A stretch of 37,985 bases of DNA from a virus (lineage: Duplodnaviria; Heunggongvirae; Uroviricota; Caudoviricetes): positions 1 to 37,985 of the IMG/VR virus record IMGVR_UViG_3300014614_000024; one strand, 5' to 3'. The notes below the pieces were generated by a model. That model made no database searches and had not been told where the DNA came from. It was given only the letters and a program-made list of their open reading frames with translations. A program made the translations under genes and the position numbers. This document shows positions 23,554-36,843 of this stretch, one piece after another. How positions within the stretch are numbered: the first letter of the stretch is position 1; each line of letters starts with the position of its first letter.

Positions 23554-24294
23554 TTACTCAATAGGTTCAAACTCATCCTGAGGAATCAGCGTCGATTGAC
23601 AGGCTTGGCTTAGTACTCCTGATAATTTACATAATAACCGATAGTTATGAGGAGCATCATCGCTAATCTTTTCGACCGTTAAAGTGATTGATTTTGGATC
23701 ATCCAATAACATCTTCTTGATATCATTACTTAAATACCTAGGGCAGTAACCAACGATTTCAGCTGGTTTATCTGCACGAACGACAACAGCATCCCCATCG
23801 TATTCATTTTGAAGATCCAAGCAAAGACGCAAAATTTGCCCCGGTTTCAATTCAGATACACGAGCATTAGCTAAGCTATTTAAGTAACCAAGTCCATGTA
23901 AGAAGAAAAAATGCTCAAAGTTACCATCAGAATCAACATCAATTTTTTTGAAAATCTGCAGCTGATCAGTGCTTCGTAAGCCTCCCGAGCGAGCAAGAAT
24001 ATCGATAGGATTTACCTTATCTTCTTCAAATCCAAGCCATTTAATGAAACTCGGATACTCTGGACGTCTCGGTGATAAAAGGCGATTTTTAAAAAGAGGA
24101 AACAATTCTTCCGAAACATAAGTTTCACGAACATCACTCATGCCGCTAAACTTTGTAAATTTAGTAGATTTAAGAGCACCTTTGGTATACCTGAAAACAT
24201 ACCCCGATTTGCGCTCTTGCAAGTTACCAACAACATGCCAGTCTCTGGTATCTGGTGCCTGCCATGCGACGTAAACGGAGTTTGTATTAGTCAT
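23554..24294 (-). CDS. HIRAN-domain protein (cargo; second gene of a two-gene operon)
   Basis: 246 aa; C-terminal segment LRLCLDLQNEYDGDAVVVRADKPAEIVGYCPRYLSNDIKKMLLD fits the HIRAN signature (N.yD..A..V...G.IGY.PR) as I recall it; ATG overlaps the upstream stop (ATGA); AT-rich. Confidence 0.6.
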   Translation of the reverse strand: MTNTNSVYVAWQAPDTRDWHVVGNLQERKSGYVFRYTKGALKSTKFTKFSGMSDVRETYVSEELFPLFKNRLLSPRRPEYPSFIKWLGFEEDKVNPIDILARSGGLRSTDQLQIFKKIDVDSDGNFEHFFFLHGLGYLNSLANARVSELKPGQILRLCLDLQNEYDGDAVVVRADKPAEIVGYCPRYLSNDIKKMLLDDPKSITLTVEKISDDAPHNYRLLCKLSGVLSQACQSTLIPQDEFEPIE

Positions 24295-25205
24295 TCTAGT
24301 AACCTTCTGCGATTTTCCATTACCATTAACGTTGCAAATCTACGTGCACTGTCGGATATACACGATGAAGGCACTTGGTTAAACACATCTGTAATGGAAT
24401 CTTCTGTTAAAACGCTCAACTTACCTAACCAATGGTCGCGAGCGGCAACTCTCCCTTCAACTGCATGTTGAAATGCTTCAACGGTCAGCAAGGGCTTTTT
24501 ATCAGTTTTTGCTTTGAATAGCTCAGAGCGAGCTTTTCTTACAAAACATGGGATTTGTCGATTTTTATCTTTAGTATTAAGCCGTTCGTTACGCTCATCA
24601 TCTAACATCTCCCTTCCTAAACTAGCGGCATGATCGTATGTTGGACACAAAAACTGCTCACCAGTTTCATTGTTAAGCATGATCGCCCAATTTTCATGAT
24701 GGCGATCTTGATTACTCACAAGTGCATCGAGCATCAAAAATCCACAAAATACATCTGCTGCATTTAGCCCGGTTAGATCATATACACTCGGAGGAGGCTT
24801 GATAGATTCCCTATCTAAACAACCCAATACCCTTGTGACAGTGTGTTCTCTGACCCTTACCGGCTTTTCCCCGGCTTGTAAAGGCCCTGGATAATCGAAT
24901 GTCGAACTGTGAAGCACTTCATTTCCCATTACCATCCGGAAACCAGATGGAATGATATTCTGAGTCACCACACCGAATCGACCATTGTATCGCGCCAAAT
25001 CATAGCTAGCATGTGGAATGTTAAGCAAATGACATAACTCAGCAGCACACTTTTCAGACCAATGCTCGCCAGTACCTGGCCTAGAGTACTTAAACAACTG
25101 CAAATTTACAGTGTCATCGGAGAAATAGAACCAAAACTTCTCTTTGGTTCCTAACTGTTCAAGATCGTTAGCTACGGGGCTAAGCTCTACCAATTGGTAT
25201 GGCAT
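24291..25205 (-). CDS. HipA-like Ser/Thr kinase core (short form, lacks the HipA N-terminal subdomains)
   Basis: 304 aa; motifs GTKEKF (compare HipA G.QEK), SNQDRHHENW (catalytic loop D.H..N) and LCPTYD (compare HipA LAPAYD); AGGGA upstream of the ATG at 25205. Confidence 0.65.
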   Translation of the reverse strand: MPYQLVELSPVANDLEQLGTKEKFWFYFSDDTVNLQLFKYSRPGTGEHWSEKCAAELCHLLNIPHASYDLARYNGRFGVVTQNIIPSGFRMVMGNEVLHSSTFDYPGPLQAGEKPVRVREHTVTRVLGCLDRESIKPPPSVYDLTGLNAADVFCGFLMLDALVSNQDRHHENWAIMLNNETGEQFLCPTYDHAASLGREMLDDERNERLNTKDKNRQIPCFVRKARSELFKAKTDKKPLLTVEAFQHAVEGRVAARDHWLGKLSVLTEDSITDVFNQVPSSCISDSARRFATLMVMENRRRLLE

Positions 25206-25350
25206 CTGACATCCCTGTTTAGCGGATTATGAATAAGTTAGGTTCCATTTTATCCAAACATTGTCAAATACTCTAAGATTTATTAGATGATAGAGCGATA
25301 CTGTATGCATGTCCAGCAATCAAATCAATATATAACTCTTATATGACTTA

Positions 25351-25380
25351 GCGCGCGCTCGTATCCCCGCCACGCCTGCC
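25351..25380 (-). other. putative cos site (cohesive-end region)
   Basis: minus-strand GGCGTGGCGGGGA (plus 25365-25376 ccccgccacgcc) matches the first 13 nt of the 186/P2 cohesive end as I recall it; lies in the only large non-coding gap between Q and A; flanked by repeated TCATGC motifs. Confidence 0.35.
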
Positions 25381-25867
25381 CGCTTTATGCAGTGGTTTTC
25401 ATGCACCTGCATGACATGAGTAAAAGCTCGCCAGTTCTAGCAGGTCTCTGCAAAAACGATCCTCAATCGATCATGCGATTTCATGCAGCATAGTCATGCA
25501 CAGCCAAGGGAAGCGTAAATCCGTATCTGAATGACCGCTGAAAAGCGAATCATACGGGTTTACAAAGATGAAAGTCCGCTGTGAGTGAAAAGCGGACATT
25601 AACTCCTTGCTTTTTGGCACTGAAACAGAGCGAAGCAGCATGTAAGCTGTTACGGATGCGCAGCGGTGACAACAGCAACTTCAATTAAGGAAATGCTCTT
25701 GGTTTTCGGGGAGACTTTTCGAGCGATATATGATAATGAAGACACTAAAAAACTGAACAGAAACGTCTAGCTCAATATGACTTCTGTTCAGGTATAAATG
25801 GTCTATTTATATATTCTCTCTTCAAATCCTTACTGAATACTCTCGAAGATGGCTAACGCCCCCTCTC

Positions 25868-26830
25868 TTAACCTTCATAGTTCATGCCGCCAAGATACGA
25901 AGGTATCATCATTAATGATTTAACCCTTTCTTTTTCTTTTTCGGTGAGATGACGACATGCAAATGGGTAAATATTGATCAAAAATGTCTTGAGTTCGTCA
26001 AATGCCTCATCTGAATATAGGGTCCCAGATCTTAACTCATTCATTATTGTCATGACCCATTTTATAAACACAGTTGGCATCATTACATCAGCTATATCTT
26101 CCCAGCCATCAATAAGGCCATTGTTTGTTTGTTTTCTAACATACTGCCGGAGTGCTTGGTCGCAGTTGCCTCGACACGTCCAAAAAATATGTTCATTATA
26201 CTCTGGTTCTTTTTCGTAGTCGGTGCGGATTCTTTGCCATATAGTGATAATTCCCTTGTCGTCTTGAGACAGAAGCTCTTTCTTGCAAACTTTGCATTTT
26301 AAGCTAGGTTCATCGGAAAATATTCTTGCGGGTTTGGGGTTTTCTGTTTTCCACTCAGATAACGACTTTGGGAAGTACCTTTCGGCAATTTCCAATCCTC
26401 TGGAAGAGTGTAAAAGTTCCCTCTCTATTTTCTCTTTATCGAAAACCTGAAATTCAATTCGTCCTTTCAACCCGTCAAGTATTCCAGACAGACCTGCACT
26501 AGCAAGAGTTGAATAGAACCCGATAAATCCTTGGCAGTTATTCGCTATTACTCGATCAGTAATATTTGCATCATCTCCTGGATTAACTGAATTTCCACTA
26601 TGAGCTTTATGCTTACAGCTTACCAACCAACGGATAATTGTTTCCCCGCCGACACCAGTCCTTTTTTCTTCGGCTATAATATCAACCCCACCGTCAGCCC
26701 CTCTATCTGGGTCAGATATAATTTTATATCCCAGAAAAGCTAAGAAGTCGCGAGAAAAAAGTTCAAATGTGTCTTGCAGCCCTGTTGCTTTATGAGCCTC
26801 TGGTATTTCTTTGAAGTCTAATACTGGCAT
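25868..26830 (-). CDS. Mrr-cat-like PD-(D/E)xK nuclease domain fused to a Cys-rich (CxxC...CxxxC) C-terminal domain; cargo
   Basis: 320 aa; N-terminal GADGGVDIIAEE...LVSCKHK resembles the restriction-endonuclease (Mrr catalytic) core; C-terminal CKVCKK...CRGNC; AT-rich; own divergent promoter region. Confidence 0.5.
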   Translation of the reverse strand: MPVLDFKEIPEAHKATGLQDTFELFSRDFLAFLGYKIISDPDRGADGGVDIIAEEKRTGVGGETIIRWLVSCKHKAHSGNSVNPGDDANITDRVIANNCQGFIGFYSTLASAGLSGILDGLKGRIEFQVFDKEKIERELLHSSRGLEIAERYFPKSLSEWKTENPKPARIFSDEPSLKCKVCKKELLSQDDKGIITIWQRIRTDYEKEPEYNEHIFWTCRGNCDQALRQYVRKQTNNGLIDGWEDIADVMMPTVFIKWVMTIMNELRSGTLYSDEAFDELKTFLINIYPFACRHLTEKEKERVKSLMMIPSYLGGMNYEG

Positions 26831-27112
26831 TTTTATGGGGTCCTTAAGTTGTTAATGCTTATTGGGTGGAAAGAACCGTATTTAAACACGGAGTTTCTGC
26901 CTCTGTAAATTTAATATGTAGAACACTCATCACTTTTTATAACTGACAATAGGATATTTAGACGTCTGTTTTTGGCACAAAGCAGACAAAAAACTGAAGG
27001 CCCACTGTGAACGAGAAACGGACTATGATACTAACAAGAGAGCATCACTGTTAATATTTGAACAATTAATGCTCAGCTATTTATCTATTTTTACAATTAG
27101 AAAGGACTTGTA

Positions 27113-27523
27113 ATGGTTACGGTTGATGAATTAAAGATGAAATATCCGGACGCGAATGCCTGGCAAATGGGCGACAGCCCTGAACTGGCTAACGAGCTTG
27201 CAGCGCTTATCAAAAAAGGAATTAAAACGGCCTCCTGCGGCTCTTATGCCTCTTACCAGAAGGAAGAGTTTGCCCCAAGGATTGGGAGCTATAACATCAT
27301 CCTTAACGGCCAAGATGTACCGGTATACGTGACCCGGCTGGTGTCGATGCGACTGGTGCGTTTTTGTGATGTTACTGCCGAGTTCGCTCGCAAGGAAGGT
27401 GAAGGCGATTTGAGTCTTGAATATTGGCAGAGAGAGCATCAACGATTTTTTACATGTGAAGGTTACTTTTCTGATGATATGGAGCTGATTATGGAAGAGT
27501 TTGAAGTTGTTGATGTTTTGTAA
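27113..27523 (+). CDS. ASCH (PUA-like) domain protein; cargo
   Basis: 136 aa; resembles the YqfB/ASCH family by eye (IKKGIKTAS..., ...AEFARKEGEGD...); AAAGGA 6 nt upstream of the ATG. Confidence 0.55.
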   Translation: MVTVDELKMKYPDANAWQMGDSPELANELAALIKKGIKTASCGSYASYQKEEFAPRIGSYNIILNGQDVPVYVTRLVSMRLVRFCDVTAEFARKEGEGDLSLEYWQREHQRFFTCEGYFSDDMELIMEEFEVVDVL

Positions 27524-27675
27524 TCCAACAACGTTTATGCATGTCAGATTAGAATAACTGAGTACCGTTTTATCACGTGAAATTTGTATTAATGCCCGCC
27601 TCTGGCACAAAGCGAACGAGCACTTATCAAAATGCCCACCCACCTTACGCCTCGTTTCACTCGTTGCCAAAACTA

Positions 27676-27705
27676 GCCCCCATCAGAATGAATCCTCTTG
27701 GGGGC
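27676..27705. terminator. hairpin terminator (gccccc...gggggc) between the ASCH gene and the convergent DinI-like gene
   Basis: 6-bp G/C stem with 18-nt loop; on the minus strand it is followed by tagTTTTgg, 9 nt after the DinI-like stop. Confidence 0.45.
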
Positions 27706-27713
27706 AACGTTTC

Positions 27714-27947
27714 TTAATGCAGCCAGCTGTCGTCTTCCCACACCTTCTGCATAATTTTCATCACTTGTTTTCTTTCTTCGTCCAGTTGCAATCCGGTAAG
27801 TTCCACACCGTTAGAGCTACCTTTGCGGATACGAATTACCGTTTTGGGATACAGGGGGCGCAGATTGCGGTAAAGCTCGGATTCAAGGGCGTCCAGGGTA
27901 GACTGGCTAATCTTCTGCTCTTTATCGATCATTATTTCAATGCGCAT
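27714..27947 (-). CDS. DinI-family protein
   Basis: 77 aa; MRIEIMIDK...ELYRNL...KIMQKVWEDD parallels E. coli DinI (MRIEVTIAK...ILQETWESADDW); GAGGTG 7 nt upstream. Confidence 0.7.
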   Translation of the reverse strand: MRIEIMIDKEQKISQSTLDALESELYRNLRPLYPKTVIRIRKGSSNGVELTGLQLDEERKQVMKIMQKVWEDDSWLH

Positions 27948-27958
27948 AAAAAGTCACC

Positions 27959-28147
27959 TCAACTGATGACATCCATTGAGCGGTTGTATTCGTGGGTTCT
28001 GATTTTTGCCATGAGTTCATCTGTTAGTTCAGAAACCCACTGCAAAGCCAGCCCCTTCTCTTCATCACTACACTCACTAGTCGCTACAAGCTTAAGAAAA
28101 AAATCAATGCGCTGGAGCTTCAAAGACTCCAAAAAATAGTCCTGCAT
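27959..28147 (-). CDS. small acidic protein, first gene of the SOS-box operon (candidate Tum-like antirepressor)
   Basis: 62 aa; AGGAGG upstream of ATG 28147; LexA box 43-58 bp upstream; positional analogy to 186 tum only, no sequence recognition. Confidence 0.35.
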   Translation of the reverse strand: MQDYFLESLKLQRIDFFLKLVATSECSDEEKGLALQWVSELTDELMAKIRTHEYNRSMDVIS

Positions 28148-28189
28148 CTTTCCTCCTATGACACCAAAGCAATACTGTATACATAACCA

Positions 28190-28205
28190 CTGTTTATATT
28201 TACAG
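28190..28205. promoter_or_regulatory. LexA (SOS) box CTGT-N8-ACAG
   Basis: ctgtttatatttacag with AT-rich spacer, flanked by ca...ta; read directly from the sequence. Confidence 0.6.
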
Positions 28206-28220
28206 TATATAATAATCTTA

Positions 28221-28251
28221 CTGATGTAAAACGTTTTTTTACGTTCATCAG
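28221..28251 (-). terminator. hairpin downstream of gene A (ctgatgtaaaacg-T7-acgttcatcag)
   Basis: inverted repeat read from the sequence; U-rich tract follows on the minus strand. Confidence 0.35.
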
Positions 28252-28299: not shown

Positions 28300-30672
28300 T
28301 TAATACAGGTTCCGCCACTTATCATCTTCCTGCAAACGCTGGTTCCGATAGAAGATACGCAGGCCTGCTCCTGACGGAATACTGCCGCCGCGAAGGAGTA
28401 AATCGACCTCTTTCTCGCTACCATCAAATCCTCTGGACTTCAGCTCATAGACGAGCTGCAGTCGCTGATGGTCTGTAATTCGCTGTTTGTAGTCTTTACG
28501 CCGTTTCGGTTTAACCAGGCGTAACCTTGCAGCCAGTTCCCGGCGCTCTTTTTTGCTCATACTGTGCAGGTAATCGTGCAACTCCTTGTCATCCATGCGG
28601 GTAATGTCCGTTCTGATGTCCCCATCAGCTGATTTATCTTTCTCCTGTTGGTTCAAATTTTCAGCAAGGGGACAGTTATTGCCACGAGTCCAAGGGGCGC
28701 AAGCGCCCTGGTCGGCTGCCGCCTCCTGAACGTCAACGGCCTTACGAACCATTTTCCACTTCACGGCATGAGTGCAGATCTTGCCCTCTGCAATAGGTGA
28801 CCAGATGCCATAAATACGAATGCCGTGATCGCCATAGGCGGTCGGCTCTTCGTTGATTTCATAAGCAGTTCTGATGAGGTGATATTTGCGGGGAACCAGT
28901 ACGCCACCCTGCTTCATGATGTAGGTGGCAAAACAACCAGCATCAGCAGCAGCCAGAATGGCATCAAGGCGCGGGTTATCCAGTACCGGCGCACCTGCTT
29001 TTTTGTCCCCCTGTTGCCTTGCCGCCTGACCAGCCAGCAATCGCAGTTCACGGTAAGCCTGACGCCCCGGAATGCCAAAGAAGCGGAATTGCTGAACACG
29101 ATGCAGAGACGCCCAGGCATTAACGTATTCAGCATTATCACGCAGGGATTTCCCCGTTTCCTTGCTGATCTCGCCAGCCAGACCACGCCCGTCAATGTTC
29201 TTACTGATGTATTTCGCGATGTAGCTTGTTGGCGTACCTTTGCGCGGGTTAATCAACTCAGACTTAAAGCGCGGCCCAGTGTTATTGCCCAGCTCCTCGC
29301 GGTCTTCACGGATGGCAAACTTACGCAGTAATGCAGTGATGGTGCGGCGGTCTTTTTTGCGCATAAAACACAACAGGTGCCAGTGAACTGTACCGTCATG
29401 ATGCGGCTCAGCCACCCGCACGCCATACCACCGCAATCCGGCTTTGTGCATCGCCTTACGAAATGCAGCAAACATGCCGACCAGATAATCACTGCTTTGT
29501 CTTACCGTCGCATTTGTCCAGGTTGGGTTGGGCCTGCCGTTATTTAGCGTGGAATGGAAACGTGACGGACAGGTGATGGTGTAGAAAACGGCGCAGTCAC
29601 CGCGCATTTCCGCGATAAGCTCCAGACCTTTAACACAGGCCATCATCTCATTGCGGCGATGCGCAGGGTTGCTGCTGCTGGCGTTTACCACATCCTCCAT
29701 GTCCAGCGTGTCGCCGTCTTCGTTCACCAGTTCATGAGAACGGAAAAACTCCAGCGACTTACGGCGCTGCTCACGTTTATGCATCACGGCTTCATAGCTG
29801 ACATAGGGAGATGCTTTTTTGCTGACCAGGCAAACAGCACGCAACTGCTCTTCCCGCCATTCGCAACGCATCTTCCATAATTTCCGGTACCACCAGTCGG
29901 CGCACAACATACGCGCCAGCGAACCCGGAATGAGTTCATAGGGCACGGGTTTACGGCGGTTTCTTTTCCGGCGGAGTTGCTCAAACGCAGGCGGTATGAC
30001 ATCCAGTCGCAGGGTTTCTGCTGCCACCTTTTCCCATGTCTTGCGGATTTCTTCTGGCTTAACGTCATCGGTGGCATACAAATCGCCACAAGCTGCATCA
30101 AGGCACATGCTCATATGCGCAGCAACAAGGGTGGACAGGCGTTTCACCTGATCCTGACTCATTTCAGGCAGAATCAGCAGGCCGTCCAGCCCTTCATGGC
30201 TTGCCATAAAGCGAAAAGAAGTGGATAGCTGACTGTCGCGCACATGCTCCAGCCGTTCCAGACATGGCTTAATCGTCTCACGCAAATAGCGGGAATAAGC
30301 CTTTGGCCTGCCAAGGCTGCTGAAGTATTCAATACGTTGCATCAGCGGCTTGCTGATATGGGAAGGCTGGGCATTGACGTCCGCCAGAATGACCATATCT
30401 GGATTAAAACGCTGCTGCTCATGCGCCAGCTTTGCCCGACTAATGAGCTTATCCTGCTCCATTTCGCGCTGTACAGGATCACGGGATTCATTAAAGAAAT
30501 AACGCTCCCAGACCTGATCACTCAGTACCTCGCGGCGCAGGTGTTCCTGCTCGTTATCGGCAGCGTACAGAGCGATCAGGTTTGAAAGCGCAGAAACTGA
30601 AGATTGCTCTTCTGTCTCTACGTAAGGATTGATTGCTTTTTTCTCAGCATTCCAGGAATAGCTGTAGTTCAT
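28300..30672 (-). CDS. A: replication initiation endonuclease A (rolling-circle HUH Rep)
   Basis: 790 aa; HUH motif HWHLL and two-tyrosine motif YIAKYISK; same position as P2/186 gene A. Confidence 0.85.
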
Positions 30673-34220: not shown

Positions 34221-34249
34221 AGAATAGGTTCGCATAAAGAATATGTCAA
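34221..34249 (-). promoter_or_regulatory. candidate early lytic promoter pR (TTGACA-17-TATTCT)
   Basis: -35 TTGACA at 34249-34244 overlaps the cI start codon; -10 TATTCT at 34226-34221; transcribes toward apl. Confidence 0.45.
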
Positions 34250-35184
34250 CTAATAAAATCACATTTCGCCATATTGAAGATCATCTGAAAGCCATGGTCA
34301 TGCAGAATCGAGGAGGGCAAAAAGTCATTGAGAGAATACTCATGGCCTATGGTTTCAAATCACGCCAAGCATTCTGTAACCACCTTGGTATTTCACAAAG
34401 TACAATGGCTAACAGATATGCACGCGATACCTTCCCTGCTGATTGGGTTGTTATATGTTCAATGGAAACTGGCGCATCAATCGAATGGTTAGCATTTGGT
34501 TTAGATGCTGAAGAAGGAGTGCCAGCTCCTTCGCCAGAACGGCATGCTGAAAAACAGTCTGCAGATGAATTTTGCAATGAAGTTCACACCCCCACGATAA
34601 AGTTCGATAATGAAAACCACATGGATTTCACTCGAGGGGGTAAAGCAGCAATAGAGCGAATTGTTAAGGCTTACGGTTACAAAACGCGCCAAGCCTTAGC
34701 CGATCACCTTGGTATCTCAAAAAGCACATTAGCTACACGATACATGCGAGACATTTTTCCGGCAGACTGGATCATCCAATGCTGTTTAGAAACAGGAGTG
34801 TCTCTCGAGTGGTTATCTTTTGGTAAGGGGCATTCCAATCAAACAAAGCTAAGTGGGTTGCTTACATTAGACTGCTATGATCTACGTGACGGCAAACTTA
34901 CTGATCAAAGAGAATTAATCGTTTCGAGCGAAATTTTACCTCAAAATTTAAAACATCCCTATATAGTTAATTCCGCAAATGATTCATATATCATTAGCAA
35001 AGAGGAGTATCTTAGCGATGGTCTATGGTTAGTATCTATTAACGGAGAATTTACTTTTAGAGACATATTTAAACTTCCAAACAATCGCATCCGCGTTGAA
35101 AACACAAAATATAGCTTTGAATGCGATAAAGAAGATTTGGAATTTAATAATAAAGTTAAAGGAATAATTAGAAAAAGGGTTTAA
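34243..35184 (+). CDS. cI: CI-like immunity repressor (186 type) with duplicated N-terminal DNA-binding domain
   Basis: 313 aa; residues ~24-90 and ~132-198 are paralogous (GGQKVIERILMAYGFKSRQAF.NHLGISQSTMANRYARDTFPADW... versus GGKAAIERIVKAYGYKTRQALADHLGISKSTLATRYMRDIFPADW...), both like the 186 CI N-terminal domain; C-terminus (SDGLWLV...FKLP...FEC) like the 186 CI oligomerisation domain. Confidence 0.7.
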   Translation: MSTNKITFRHIEDHLKAMVMQNRGGQKVIERILMAYGFKSRQAFCNHLGISQSTMANRYARDTFPADWVVICSMETGASIEWLAFGLDAEEGVPAPSPERHAEKQSADEFCNEVHTPTIKFDNENHMDFTRGGKAAIERIVKAYGYKTRQALADHLGISKSTLATRYMRDIFPADWIIQCCLETGVSLEWLSFGKGHSNQTKLSGLLTLDCYDLRDGKLTDQRELIVSSEILPQNLKHPYIVNSANDSYIISKEEYLSDGLWLVSINGEFTFRDIFKLPNNRIRVENTKYSFECDKEDLEFNNKVKGIIRKRV

Positions 35185-35186
35185 CA

Positions 35187-36236
35187 ATGAGCTTTACGAA
35201 AACTATTGAATTTGCAAACTATACCTTAAATTTTGGAGAGGACAAAGTTCTCTTAGATGCTTTTGATTGCATTGTTTTTCCTTCATTTTTCGCACAAAAA
35301 TACGTTAGAAAATTTAAAGATACAGAATATTTCTTTACTGACACAAAAATTATTACGTTAGATACTACAGATTCAGATTTTATTGGTCCTATAGTTCCAA
35401 CAATTGCATTGTGTGGCCGCATTATAAAAAAGACCATATTTAAACGAGATCAAATATTTCAAGATGGTCAATTAATTCGAGATCACAGGACGCTAGAAAG
35501 TCACCCCAGCTCTATTTTTATTCTTATGCTTAATGAGCACAGATTAATGCTTTGCAAAGAGGTTTCTGGAGCCCCTACCCTAGAAGAATTTGAAAATACT
35601 AGCAAGTATTGCCTTGCACAGCGATATAATTCTTTTGTGGATTACGAAGTAAAAAAAAATAAAAGAATTAGAAAGAAAAAATCATACATTGATCGACTGT
35701 ATAAAAAAGATATTTATCGTAAACTAGGAGCCCCCAAATTACGGGTTACCCCCTTAACAGACCCAAGATCATTGAGCAATTTTGTTGAACTCTTTTCTGT
35801 TGTTAATAGATTATCAATTGAGTTATTGCCAACAAATAGTGAAAATATATCTCTTGATGGCTTCTGGAGGAAAATTGAACAAGAAAAAGAAGAACTTAAT
35901 AGTAGTAAAGCTCAATTAGTATACACAAATAAAAATGAAGATGGTTTAAATTCTGAGGCCGTCATTCAAAAAACAACAAGTGCAACCCGAATGGCCAACT
36001 CTAAAGTAATTATAAGTGGTAAAGATGAACACGGAGCAAGGCTATCAGGGAATAATGATAGTTTTACTCTAAAAGCATCAAGGCCACAACTTAGTTCTGA
36101 TTTGGAAAGAGCTGCTCAAGAGGCGTATTCTGCATTCACAGAATTAAAGGATGCAGGAAATATTATTATTCCAGAACGTGAAGATTATACTAAAATTTTT
36201 TCCAAGTTAACATCAATAATTTCTAGGTGGCTATAG
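35187..36236 (+). CDS. hypothetical soluble protein (cargo; first gene of a Rex-like pair)
   Basis: 349 aa, very AT-rich and Lys/Asn-rich; starts 3 nt after the cI stop; no family recognised. Confidence 0.5.
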   Translation: MSFTKTIEFANYTLNFGEDKVLLDAFDCIVFPSFFAQKYVRKFKDTEYFFTDTKIITLDTTDSDFIGPIVPTIALCGRIIKKTIFKRDQIFQDGQLIRDHRTLESHPSSIFILMLNEHRLMLCKEVSGAPTLEEFENTSKYCLAQRYNSFVDYEVKKNKRIRKKKSYIDRLYKKDIYRKLGAPKLRVTPLTDPRSLSNFVELFSVVNRLSIELLPTNSENISLDGFWRKIEQEKEELNSSKAQLVYTNKNEDGLNSEAVIQKTTSATRMANSKVIISGKDEHGARLSGNNDSFTLKASRPQLSSDLERAAQEAYSAFTELKDAGNIIIPEREDYTKIFSKLTSIISRWL

Positions 36237-36237
36237 T

Positions 36238-36843
36238 ATGAAATATACATTCAACCCAGAAGATCTGACCAAAGAGCGATCTTTGCATGATGTTTACAAA
36301 TTAACTAAAAAAATAAAGGTCAATTCATTTGACTTTTATTTCACATTATTATTAGTGATATTATTATCTATTAATGCTTTTTGTCTATCTTCATCACCAG
36401 AGTTAATTTCATCTATTAGACAATGGACACCTTTAGTATTCGGATTCACTACAACAACATTAGGTTTTTTAATTACTGGATTTACAATATTTGCAACCAT
36501 AAATAAACCTGAACTTTTCCTTTCATTAATGGAGTATAAGCATCCATTATACGGGATAAGTTACTTAAAATATGTTTATGGCGTATTTATGAGAGTATTT
36601 ATATATTTCATATTTTGGTCTGTTATCTATCTTTTAGTCCTTCTTTTCGGGCAAGAAAATGGATTGGCTACAAAATTACTCAGAGCCTTAATGTTTTCTC
36701 ATTGCACTAAAGTTGTTGGAGTTCAAATACTATATATACTCGTAGGAAGCAGTGCAGTGTTCCTTGTATTAACTTTAAAAACTTTCCTGTTCAATATTTA
36801 TGCTATGTTAATGCAATCTCTACGCTGGGAAGTAGAAAGATAA
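36238..36843 (+). CDS. hypothetical polytopic membrane protein (cargo; second gene of a Rex-like pair)
   Basis: 201 aa with four long hydrophobic segments; ATG 2 nt after the upstream stop; AGGTGG upstream. Confidence 0.55.
   Translation: MKYTFNPEDLTKERSLHDVYKLTKKIKVNSFDFYFTLLLVILLSINAFCLSSSPELISSIRQWTPLVFGFTTTTLGFLITGFTIFATINKPELFLSLMEYKHPLYGISYLKYVYGVFMRVFIYFIFWSVIYLLVLLFGQENGLATKLLRALMFSHCTKVVGVQILYILVGSSAVFLVLTLKTFLFNIYAMLMQSLRWEVER

What the first reader, a model, noticed from the sequence alone, without database searches (positions are those of the whole stretch)
27714..28205. SOS-box-controlled two-gene operon: small acidic ORF + DinI-like protein (candidate induction/antirepressor locus)
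A LexA box (CTGTTTATATTTACAG, 28190-28205) lies 43-58 bp upstream of a 62-aa ORF with a strong AGGAGG, followed 11 nt later by a DinI-family gene with its own GAGGTG, then a hairpin terminator. In 186 the LexA-controlled tum locus provides SOS induction. Here the equivalent position holds two separate ORFs in different frames, each with its own ribosome-binding site, rather than one antirepressor. Given that the CI here is atypical, the 62-aa protein is a candidate new antirepressor.
Basis: partly seen in the sequence, partly recalled or inferred. Interest (0 to 1): 0.5.

Follow-up and report, generated by a model that had tools for sequence, protein, structure and literature searches.

The report
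Known split tum SOS operon (tumA–tumB)
This is the DNA-damage switch of a common 186/Fels-2-type prophage: a LexA-repressed pair of small genes (an antirepressor homologue plus a DinI-like protein) already described in phages PSP3 and Fels-2, so it is real but ordinary.

Summary
On the minus strand, just after replication gene A, lie a LexA box, a 62-aa ORF, a 77-aa DinI-family ORF 11 nt later, and a hairpin terminator. The 62-aa protein is not a new antirepressor. It is 97% identical to Fels-2 STM2728. Profile comparison shows it is homologous to the N-terminal half of 186 Tum (hhalign probability 96.6%, E 6.5e-10). The DinI ORF matches the C-terminal half of Tum and starts at the position of 186's internal GTG start. 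The locus is therefore the split tumA–tumB form of the 186 SOS operon. PSP3's GenBank record annotates that form, and Lemire et al. 2011 discuss it for Fels-2 and PSP3. The "atypical" CI (two HTH domains plus the 186 CI C-domain) has the same architecture as PSP3 CI.

New details from this check:
- There is a second LexA box. The two cores share one base, like the operator found upstream of colicin genes.
- tumA is under strong purifying selection (dN/dS 0.07 across 30 genes).
- tumA often occurs without the DinI gene.
- TumA sequence does not covary with CI sequence.
- The operon is present in 1125 of 5426 complete E. coli genomes.

Verdict: already known, low interest.

The parts
28225..28230 (-). 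-35 hexamer TTTACA of the SOS promoter (equivalent of 186 p95)
   Evidence: Conserved as (A)5..TTTACA in 24 aligned loci, while the 17-nt spacer varies. The layout TTTACA-17-TACTGT parallels the annotated 186 p95, TTCACA-18-TACTGT. The generic sigma-70 scan did not flag it because TACTGT matches only 3 of 6 positions of TATAAT.
28202..28207 (-). -10 hexamer TACTGT, forming the 5' end of LexA box 1
   Evidence: The same hexamer is annotated as the -10 of 186 p95. It is nearly invariant in 24 loci.
28188..28207 (-). LexA box 1, TACTGTAAATATAAACAGTG (17 of 20 to consensus; core CTGT-N8-ACAG at 28205-28190)
   Evidence: It is the only such site in the window, with 0 in 100 shuffles. A box is present in 29 of 31 related loci.
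28173..28192 (-). LexA box 2, CAGTGGTTATGTATACAGTA (15 of 20). Its 16-bp core GTGGTTATGTATACAG shares one base with the box 1 core, giving a double SOS operator like the one upstream of colicin genes.
   Evidence: A second box at a +15 nt offset occurs in 18 of 31 loci. In a blastn search with the Fels-2 operator, the hits examined lie just upstream of colicin-like pore-former genes on small Col-type plasmids. In those plasmids the aligned sequence is CTGTATATAAAACCAGTGGTTATATATACAGTAT.
28152..28157 (-). Shine-Dalgarno AGGAGG of tumA
   Evidence: Read directly. (T)AGGAGG(G)AA(A/G)ATG is conserved in 24 loci.
27959..28147 (-). tumA homologue: 62 aa, acidic (12 D/E against 7 K/R), predicted helical hairpin. 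Homologous to the N-terminal half of 186 Tum; candidate CI antirepressor.
   Evidence: phrog_698 at 7.5e-38. The 186 Tum N-terminal 70 aa hit the same three PHROGs in register. hhalign probability 96.6%, E 6.5e-10, residues 2-44 against 2-44. 96.8% identical to Fels-2 STM2728. dN/dS 0.069, against 1.3 and 2.1 in the shifted frames. AlphaFold2 pLDDT 87.7, helices 2-23 and 28-61.
27955..27960 (-). Shine-Dalgarno GAGGTG of tumB, overlapping the tumA stop codon
   Evidence: Read directly. The gap between the two ORFs is 9-12 nt in 14 of the 16 related loci that keep an intact tumB, counted to the MR[IV]E ATG.
27714..27947 (-). tumB homologue: 77-aa DinI-family protein, equivalent to the C-terminal half of 186 Tum
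   Evidence: Pfam DinI at 6.6e-23. 41% identical to Tum residues 71-145, starting at the position of 186's internal GTG start. 100% identical to Fels-2 STM2726.1 and 78% to PSP3 TumB. dN/dS 0.074.
27668..27705 (-). Intrinsic terminator: 7-bp G+C stem (27705-27676) followed by UAGUUUU
   Evidence: RNA fold -22.3 kcal/mol, z = -2.36. The pattern scanner missed it because the loop is longer than 8 nt.
34243..35184 (+). Presumed target: 186-family CI repressor, 313 aa, with two Phage_CI_repr HTH domains plus Phage_CI_C and no S24 peptidase domain
   Evidence: Pfam 2.5e-57 (two stretches) and 1.3e-19. The architecture is shared with PSP3 CI.
28300..30672 (-). Context: replication gene A (Phage_GPA) immediately upstream, as in 186, PSP3 and Fels-2
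   Evidence: Pfam 1.1e-127. The gene order matches the annotated phages.

Best explanation
The locus is the SOS (induction) operon of a 186/Fels-2-type P2-family prophage, in its split tumA-tumB form.

Proposed mechanism:
1. In an undamaged lysogen, LexA occupies two overlapping boxes. These cover the -10 hexamer and the start region of a TTTACA-17-TACTGT promoter, so the operon is silent.
2. After sustained DNA damage, LexA is cleaved and the operon is transcribed.
3. TumA, a 62-aa acidic helical hairpin homologous to the N-terminal half of 186 Tum, binds the non-cleavable 186-type CI repressor. CI comes off its operators and the lytic promoter is derepressed.
4. TumB, the DinI-like protein equivalent to the C-terminal half of Tum, is an accessory. 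It probably modulates RecA filaments and so the strength or duration of the SOS signal.
5. The transcript ends at the hairpin terminator.

Shown here: the sequence anatomy, the homologies, selection on both ORFs, conservation of the boxes, and co-occurrence with 186-type CI.

Inferred from homology and literature: LexA binding, TumA-CI binding and the role of TumB.
For: - Homology of the 62-aa ORF to the Tum N-terminal half: shared PHROGs in register and hhalign 96.6%, E 6.5e-10.
- The DinI ORF aligns to Tum residues 71-145, from the position of 186's internal GTG start.
- Near-identity to Fels-2 STM2728 and STM2726.1, and the same layout as PSP3 tumA/tumB. PSP3's record notes 'similar to 5' end 186 tum; UV induction of prophage'.
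- Literature: Tum binds CI and prevents operator binding. Fels-2 and PSP3 have tum split in two. In PSP3 the upstream gene carries the antirepressor activity (PMC3121763). p95-tum is a LexA-controlled induction module (PMC7708051).
- The LexA site is unique in the window and conserved. The promoter layout matches the annotated 186 p95.
- The double box matches the operator found upstream of colicin genes. Double colicin boxes are described as very tightly LexA-bound (PMC2994835).
- CI is 186-type with no peptidase domain.
- All 24 related loci that keep the early region carry a 186-type CI.
- tumA dN/dS is 0.069. It is intact in 29 of 31 loci, whereas the DinI gene is absent in 12 and damaged in 3.
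Against: - There is no experiment on this sequence. LexA binding and TumA-CI binding are inferred.
- The statement that the upstream half is the antirepressor rests on a personal communication, cited second-hand in PMC3121763. I could not read Bunny et al. 2002, and I did not attempt to retrieve Shearwin et al. 1998 or Brumby et al. 1996.
- BLASTP finds no similarity between the 62-aa ORF and 186 Tum. The homology is visible only at profile level.
- TumA sequence shows no covariation with CI sequence (Mantel r 0.07 and 0.02, p 0.22 and 0.40). Identical TumA proteins sit with CIs only 27-38% identical in the C-domain. This is unexpected for a specific repressor/antirepressor pair and leaves room for another target.
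- The -10 hexamer is weak and the generic promoter scan did not call the promoter.
Confidence: 0.8

Rival explanations
1. The two ORFs are a decayed (pseudogenised) copy of a single fused tum gene like that of 186. One or both halves would be non-functional.
For: 186 has one 146-aa Tum covering both halves. In PSP3 the two halves are in frame and separated only by a stop codon.
Against: - The split form is intact in 29 of 31 species-level loci. dN/dS is 0.069 for tumA and 0.074 for tumB at dS of about 1.
- Each ORF has its own SD, and here they are in different frames.
- All 65 cluster representatives found with the 62-aa query are small stand-alone proteins.
- Even the closest relatives of the 186 N-domain are mostly stand-alone proteins of 63-78 aa.
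- 186 keeps an SD and a GTG start at the junction. The fused form therefore looks like the exception.
Confidence: 0.03
2. The operon is an SOS-modulating accessory module, not the induction switch. TumA would work with or on the DinI-like protein, RecA or LexA, rather than on CI. Induction of this prophage would depend on something else.
For: - TumA does not covary with CI. It stays 95-100% identical across prophages whose CI C-domains are only about 30% identical.
- DinI proteins act on RecA filaments (literature cited in PMC3121763).
- Databases give TumA no function: PHROG 'unknown function', PGAP 'hypothetical protein'.
Against: - TumA occurs without any DinI gene in 12 of 31 loci, so it does not need TumB.
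- Every locus that keeps its early region has a 186-type CI with no peptidase domain, which needs an antirepressor.
- TumA is homologous to the part of Tum that is absent from the truncated, non-inducing 'modulator' forms annotated in 186.
- The PSP3 record ties tumA to UV induction.
Confidence: 0.12
3. The 62-aa ORF is a chance ORF in the 5' leader of a LexA-regulated dinI-like gene.
For: It is short, has no Pfam or NCBIfam family, and gene callers disagree on its start (62 to 109 aa).
Against: dN/dS is 0.069 in frame, against 1.26 and 2.08 in the shifted frames. The SD and ATG are conserved. The PHROG match is 7.5e-38. The AlphaFold2 model is confident.
Confidence: 0.01

Closest known systems
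Fels-2 prophage STM2728 / STM2726.1 (Salmonella Typhimurium LT2)
   Same: - Same position after gene A.
- TumA is 96.8% identical and the DinI protein 100% identical.
- Same double LexA box, same SD and same 11-nt junction.
- Fels-2 is cited as having tum split in two (PMC3121763).
   Different: - The Fels-2 CI is a 210-aa single-HTH protein, only 36-39% identical to the window's 313-aa CI.
- Fels-2 has a gene of the same length as 186 orf97 (732 nt) directly downstream; homology was not tested. The window has unrelated cargo there.
PSP3 tumA / tumB
   Same: - Two-cistron split tum after gene A, with a LexA box at -40.
- TumB is 78% identical.
- The CI has the same 2x Phage_CI_repr + Phage_CI_C architecture.
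- tumA is annotated as needed for UV induction.
   Different: - TumA is only about 22% identical, so it belongs to a different subfamily.
- The halves are in frame, separated by a stop codon plus 3 nt.
- There is a single LexA box rather than a double one.
Coliphage 186 Tum (p95 SOS operon)
   Same: - Same genomic position.
- LexA-repressed promoter with -10 TACTGT inside the box.
- N-domain homologous to TumA and C-domain homologous to TumB.
- 186-type CI as target.
   Different: - 186 fuses both domains into one 146-aa protein, with additional internal starts.
- It has a single LexA box.
- orf97 follows behind a partial terminator.
Gifsy-1/-2/-3 dinI-antirepressor (gfoA, gftA) operons of Salmonella
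   Same: LexA-controlled operon pairing a DinI homologue with a small antirepressor for a non-cleavable repressor (PMC3121763).
   Different: The gene order is reversed (dinI first), the phage is lambdoid and the repressor family differs. Sequence homology of GfoA/GftA to TumA was not tested here.
Colicin operon double SOS operator
   Same: Two 16-bp LexA boxes sharing one base, with the same degenerate GTGG left half in box 2. The 34 nt are nearly identical. The literature describes this arrangement as binding two LexA dimers very tightly (PMC2994835).
   Different: It controls a prophage antirepressor instead of a toxin gene. The promoter elements upstream of the boxes differ.

Membership tests
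Tum / TumA antirepressor of 186-like phages | Sequence homology to the N-terminal (non-DinI) half of 186 Tum | tested here: met
   Both sequences hit phrog_698, phrog_8554 and phrog_1993 in register. hhalign probability 96.6%, E 6.5e-10. Pairwise BLASTP is negative.
Tum / TumA antirepressor of 186-like phages | Encoded directly downstream of replication gene A in a P2/186-type genome | tested here: met
   Phage_GPA at 28300-30672 lies immediately upstream. The order is the same in 186, PSP3 and Fels-2.
Tum / TumA antirepressor of 186-like phages | Promoter carrying a LexA operator (SOS control) | tested here: met
   This is met at sequence level only. The 20-mer matches consensus at 17 of 20 positions and is unique in the window. 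A box is present in 29 of 31 loci. Actual LexA binding and induction cannot be tested with these tools.
Tum / TumA antirepressor of 186-like phages | Cognate repressor is a 186-type CI (Phage_CI_repr + Phage_CI_C) with no autocleavage domain | tested here: met
   Pfam on the 313-aa CI. A 186-type CI is present in all 24 related loci that keep the early region.
Tum / TumA antirepressor of 186-like phages | The protein binds CI and blocks operator binding; it is required for SOS induction | not testable with these tools
   Known for 186 Tum (cited in PMC3121763 and PMC7708051). For PSP3 TumA the evidence is only a personal communication.
DinI family (PF06183) | Match to the family profile above the curated threshold | tested here: met
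   81.3 bits against a 24.2-bit cut-off, E 6.6e-23. It falls below the NCBIfam equivalog cut-off for host DinI (42.7 against 111 bits), so it is a phage paralogue and not host dinI.
DinI family (PF06183) | Binding to RecA filaments | not testable with these tools
   The acidic C-terminal motif VWEDDSW is conserved. No functional test was possible.
Colicin-type double SOS operator | Two LexA boxes whose 16-bp cores overlap by one base | tested here: met
   The cores lie at 28205-28190 and 28190-28175. They align with the operator upstream of colicin-like genes.

The most novel reading that the evidence does not exclude
TumA of this subfamily is not immunity-specific. It may recognise the conserved core of the CI HTH domain, where most of the near-invariant CI residues lie. 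If so, one SOS-induced TumA could derepress any co-resident, heteroimmune 186/Fels-2-type prophage, including repressors with tandem HTH domains. The colicin-type double LexA operator would then set a shared, late threshold for this cross-induction.
Probability: 0.3. Interest if true: 0.45.

Novelty: already known. Interest (0 to 1): 0.15.

Why it matters
The main value is in annotation. This operon sits in about a fifth of complete E. coli genomes, and in many Klebsiella and Salmonella prophages. Its first gene is still labelled 'hypothetical protein', 'levan regulatory protein' or 'unknown function'. The published knowledge that it is the antirepressor half of a split tum is scattered and partly rests on a personal communication. 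Linking the 62-aa family to Tum at profile level gives a firm basis for annotating these prophages as SOS-inducible through an antirepressor.

Two side results are modest, testable leads on how P2-family prophages time induction and whether they cross-induce:
- the double SOS operator resembling that of colicin genes;
- the lack of TumA-CI covariation.

Tried and rejected
- BLASTP of the 62-aa ORF against 186 Tum gave no alignment. Homology appeared only with profiles.
- Pfam and NCBIfam have no family for the 62-aa ORF.
- The generic promoter scan did not call the SOS promoter, and the terminator scan missed the real terminator. The terminator scan flagged a weak hairpin across the tumA/tumB junction. 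Folding showed it is not significant (z = -0.89), so I make no claim of a coupling structure.
- Foldseek of the TumA model against the PDB gave only generic helical hairpins, with E of 1.3 or worse.
- PADLOC on the four neighbouring cargo ORFs found nothing convincing.
- I could not retrieve Bunny et al. 2002. A literature search for 'tumA/tumB' returned only unrelated papers.
- I looked for TumA-CI covariation as support for a specific pairing and found none.
- The pseudogene and chance-ORF readings are rejected by dN/dS.

Full report
**What is there**

Read on the minus strand, the region directly follows replication gene A (28300-30672; Pfam Phage_GPA, 1.1e-127). In order it contains:
- an A-tract and TTTACA (28230-28225);
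- 17 nt, then TACTGT (28207-28202);
- a LexA 20-mer, TACTGTAAATATAAACAGTG (28207-28188);
- AGGAGG (28157-28152);
- a 62-aa ORF (28147-27959);
- a TGA stop that overlaps GAGGTG, then an 11-nt gap;
- a 77-aa ORF in another frame (27947-27714);
- a G+C-rich hairpin with a U-tract (27705-27668; -22.3 kcal/mol, z = -2.4).

The 77-aa ORF is a clear DinI-family member (6.6e-23).

**Is the LexA box more than chance?**

The bare core CTGT-N8-ACAG is not rare: 0.47 are expected per window. The 20-mer is different. It matches the consensus at 17 of 20 positions, and no such match occurred in 100 shuffles.

Conservation adds to this. I fetched 31 loci from one genome per species that encode a relative of the 62-aa protein. 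A box lies upstream in 29 of them. The two exceptions are a contig end and a pseudogene.

An alignment of 24 upstream regions shows a classical footprint. The -35 hexamer, the -10 hexamer with the boxes, and the SD with the ATG are conserved. The 17-nt promoter spacer and the leader vary. The layout TTTACA-17-TACTGT mirrors the annotated 186 p95 promoter, TTCACA-18-TACTGT, whose -10 lies inside the LexA site.

Fifteen nucleotides downstream lies CAGTGGTTATGTATACAGTA (28192-28173). Its 16-bp core shares one base with the core of box 1. This second box occurs in 18 of the 31 loci.

A blastn search of the Fels-2 version against plasmids hit many records, mostly mobilizable plasmids. In the two small Col-type plasmids I examined, the match lies about 38 nt upstream of colicin-like pore-former genes. 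The alignment is almost base-for-base: CTGTATATAAAACCAGTGGTTATATATACAGTAT in those plasmids against CTGTAAATATAAACAGTGGTTATGTATACAGTAT here.

[quoted passage not shown] These bind two LexA dimers and give very tight repression with no basal expression (PMC2994835). By inference, this prophage's induction gene is gated in the same tight, late manner.

**What the 62-aa ORF is**

It is a real gene. Across 30 intact homologues, dN/dS is 0.069 at dS of about 1. The same DNA read in the shifted frames gives 1.26 and 2.08.

It has no Pfam or NCBIfam family. It matches phrog_698 at 7.5e-38, and also phrog_8554 and phrog_1993. The N-terminal 70 residues of coliphage 186 Tum hit the same three PHROGs in the same register.

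Pairwise BLASTP sees nothing. A profile-profile comparison of the two families gives 96.6% probability, E 6.5e-10, aligning residues 2-44 with 2-44.

The DinI ORF is 41% identical to Tum residues 71-145. It begins at the position where 186 has an internal SD and a GTG start for its truncated Tum.

The two ORFs therefore correspond to the two halves of 186 Tum.

**This split form is already described**

PSP3's GenBank record annotates two genes:
- tumA, 'similar to 5' end 186 tum; UV induction of prophage';
- tumB, 'similar to dinI and 3' end of 186 tum'.

The window's 62-aa protein is 96.8% identical to Fels-2 STM2728. Its DinI protein is 100% identical to Fels-2 STM2726.1.

Lemire et al. 2011 (PMC3121763) state that:
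- Tum looks like an antirepressor fused to DinI;
- Fels-2 and PSP3 have tum split in two;
- in PSP3 the upstream gene carries the antirepressor activity. This last point is a personal communication from G. E. Christie, cited via Bunny et al. 2002, which I could not retrieve.

The role of p95-tum as the LexA-controlled inducer that sequesters CI is standard in recent 186 work (PMC7708051).

**The split form is the rule**

- All 65 representatives (50% clusters) found with the 62-aa query are small stand-alone proteins.
- Most close relatives of the 186 N-domain are also stand-alone proteins of 63-78 aa. Some are named 'Tum protein'.
- The operon occurs in 1125 of 5426 complete E. coli genomes. 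There it is annotated 'hypothetical protein' plus 'DinI-like family protein'. It also occurs in dozens of Klebsiella, Salmonella and Escherichia phage records.

**The repressor**

The CI here (34243-35184) is 313 aa. It has two Phage_CI_repr HTH domains plus the 186 CI C-terminal domain, and no peptidase domain. PSP3 CI has the same architecture. It is therefore a known variant of a non-cleavable repressor family that depends on an antirepressor.

All 24 related loci that keep the early region carry a 186-type CI together with CII. Five loci lack one. Those have 5'-truncated A genes and are prophage remnants.

**Which half matters?**

tumA is intact in 29 of 31 loci. The DinI gene is intact in 16, damaged in 3 and absent in 12. 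This fits TumA as the essential inducer and TumB as an accessory.

**An unexpected point**

TumA does not covary with CI. Across 25 loci, median identity is 85% for TumA, 60% for the CI HTH domain and 34% for the CI C-domain. Mantel correlations are 0.07 (p = 0.22) and 0.02 (p = 0.40). Identical TumA proteins accompany CIs whose C-domains are only 27-38% identical. Most near-invariant CI residues lie in the HTH domain.

There are two ways to read this. TumA may recognise that conserved core, which would fit a protein that blocks DNA binding and would predict cross-induction of heteroimmune relatives. Alternatively, its target may not be CI. I consider the first more likely, but it is untested.

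TumA is predicted to be an acidic two-helix hairpin (pLDDT 87.7). It has no informative structural relative.

**Verdict**

The claim of novelty is not supported. This is the Fels-2/PSP3-type tumA-tumB operon, homologous to 186 tum. Novelty: already known. Interest: low.

The added details (the double SOS operator, frequent loss of tumB, no TumA-CI covariation) are minor leads rather than discoveries.

Noticed in passing
window 34243-35184 (+): The CI repressor has two tandem HTH (Phage_CI_repr) domains. Residues 1-86 are about 76% identical to the single HTH domain of one relative (L007). Residues ~131-197 are about 77% identical to that of others (L006, L013, L036). It therefore looks like a fusion of DNA-binding domains from two immunity groups. 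PSP3 CI shares the architecture.
   Followed up: partly
window 35187-36843 (+); compare L006 2056-4070: Two ORFs of 349 and 201 aa sit between cI and int in the lysogenic operon. The second looks membrane-embedded. Neither has a Pfam or PADLOC match. An otherwise near-identical prophage (L006: CII 100%, Int 99%, TumA 98%) lacks them and carries a different, single-HTH CI (49% identical). This points to a swapped immunity-plus-cargo module.
   Followed up: partly
window 23554-27523: Variable cargo lies between the tumB terminator and the late genes. It comprises an ASCH-domain ORF (27113-27523, +), a 320-aa ORF with an Mrr_cat restriction-endonuclease-like N-terminus (25868-26830, -), and two further ORFs (24291-25205 and 23554-24294, -). 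Fels-2 and other relatives carry different genes at this position.
   Followed up: partly
25 related loci (L004, L006-L036) and window: TumA sequence shows no covariation with CI sequence. Identical TumA proteins are found with CIs only 27-38% identical in the C-domain (Mantel p = 0.22 and 0.40). This suggests a non-immunity-specific antirepressor or a conserved contact surface.
   Followed up: yes
L002 3453-3743; proteins P0005, P0007 and others: Many gene calls extend the 62-aa ORF upstream to 84-109 aa, running across the LexA boxes and promoter. Some records name it 'levan regulatory (domain) protein'. Both appear to be annotation errors, given the conserved SD and ATG and the promoter footprint.
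   Followed up: partly
window 27953-27970 (-): A small hairpin (GTCATC...GGTGAC plus TTTTT) spans the tumA stop codon and the tumB SD. The terminator scanner flagged it, but its fold energy is not better than shuffled sequence (z = -0.89).
   Followed up: yes
L029-L033 (Pantoea/Erwinia loci), about 46-65 nt downstream of tumA: In L030, L032 and L033 the DinI gene is replaced by a different small ORF (MKSHDPKRISDAQA...; MNSHDPKRISDAQA... in L033; 50-84 aa). These loci, L029 and L031 have a single LexA box at about -40, as in 186 and PSP3.
   Followed up: no
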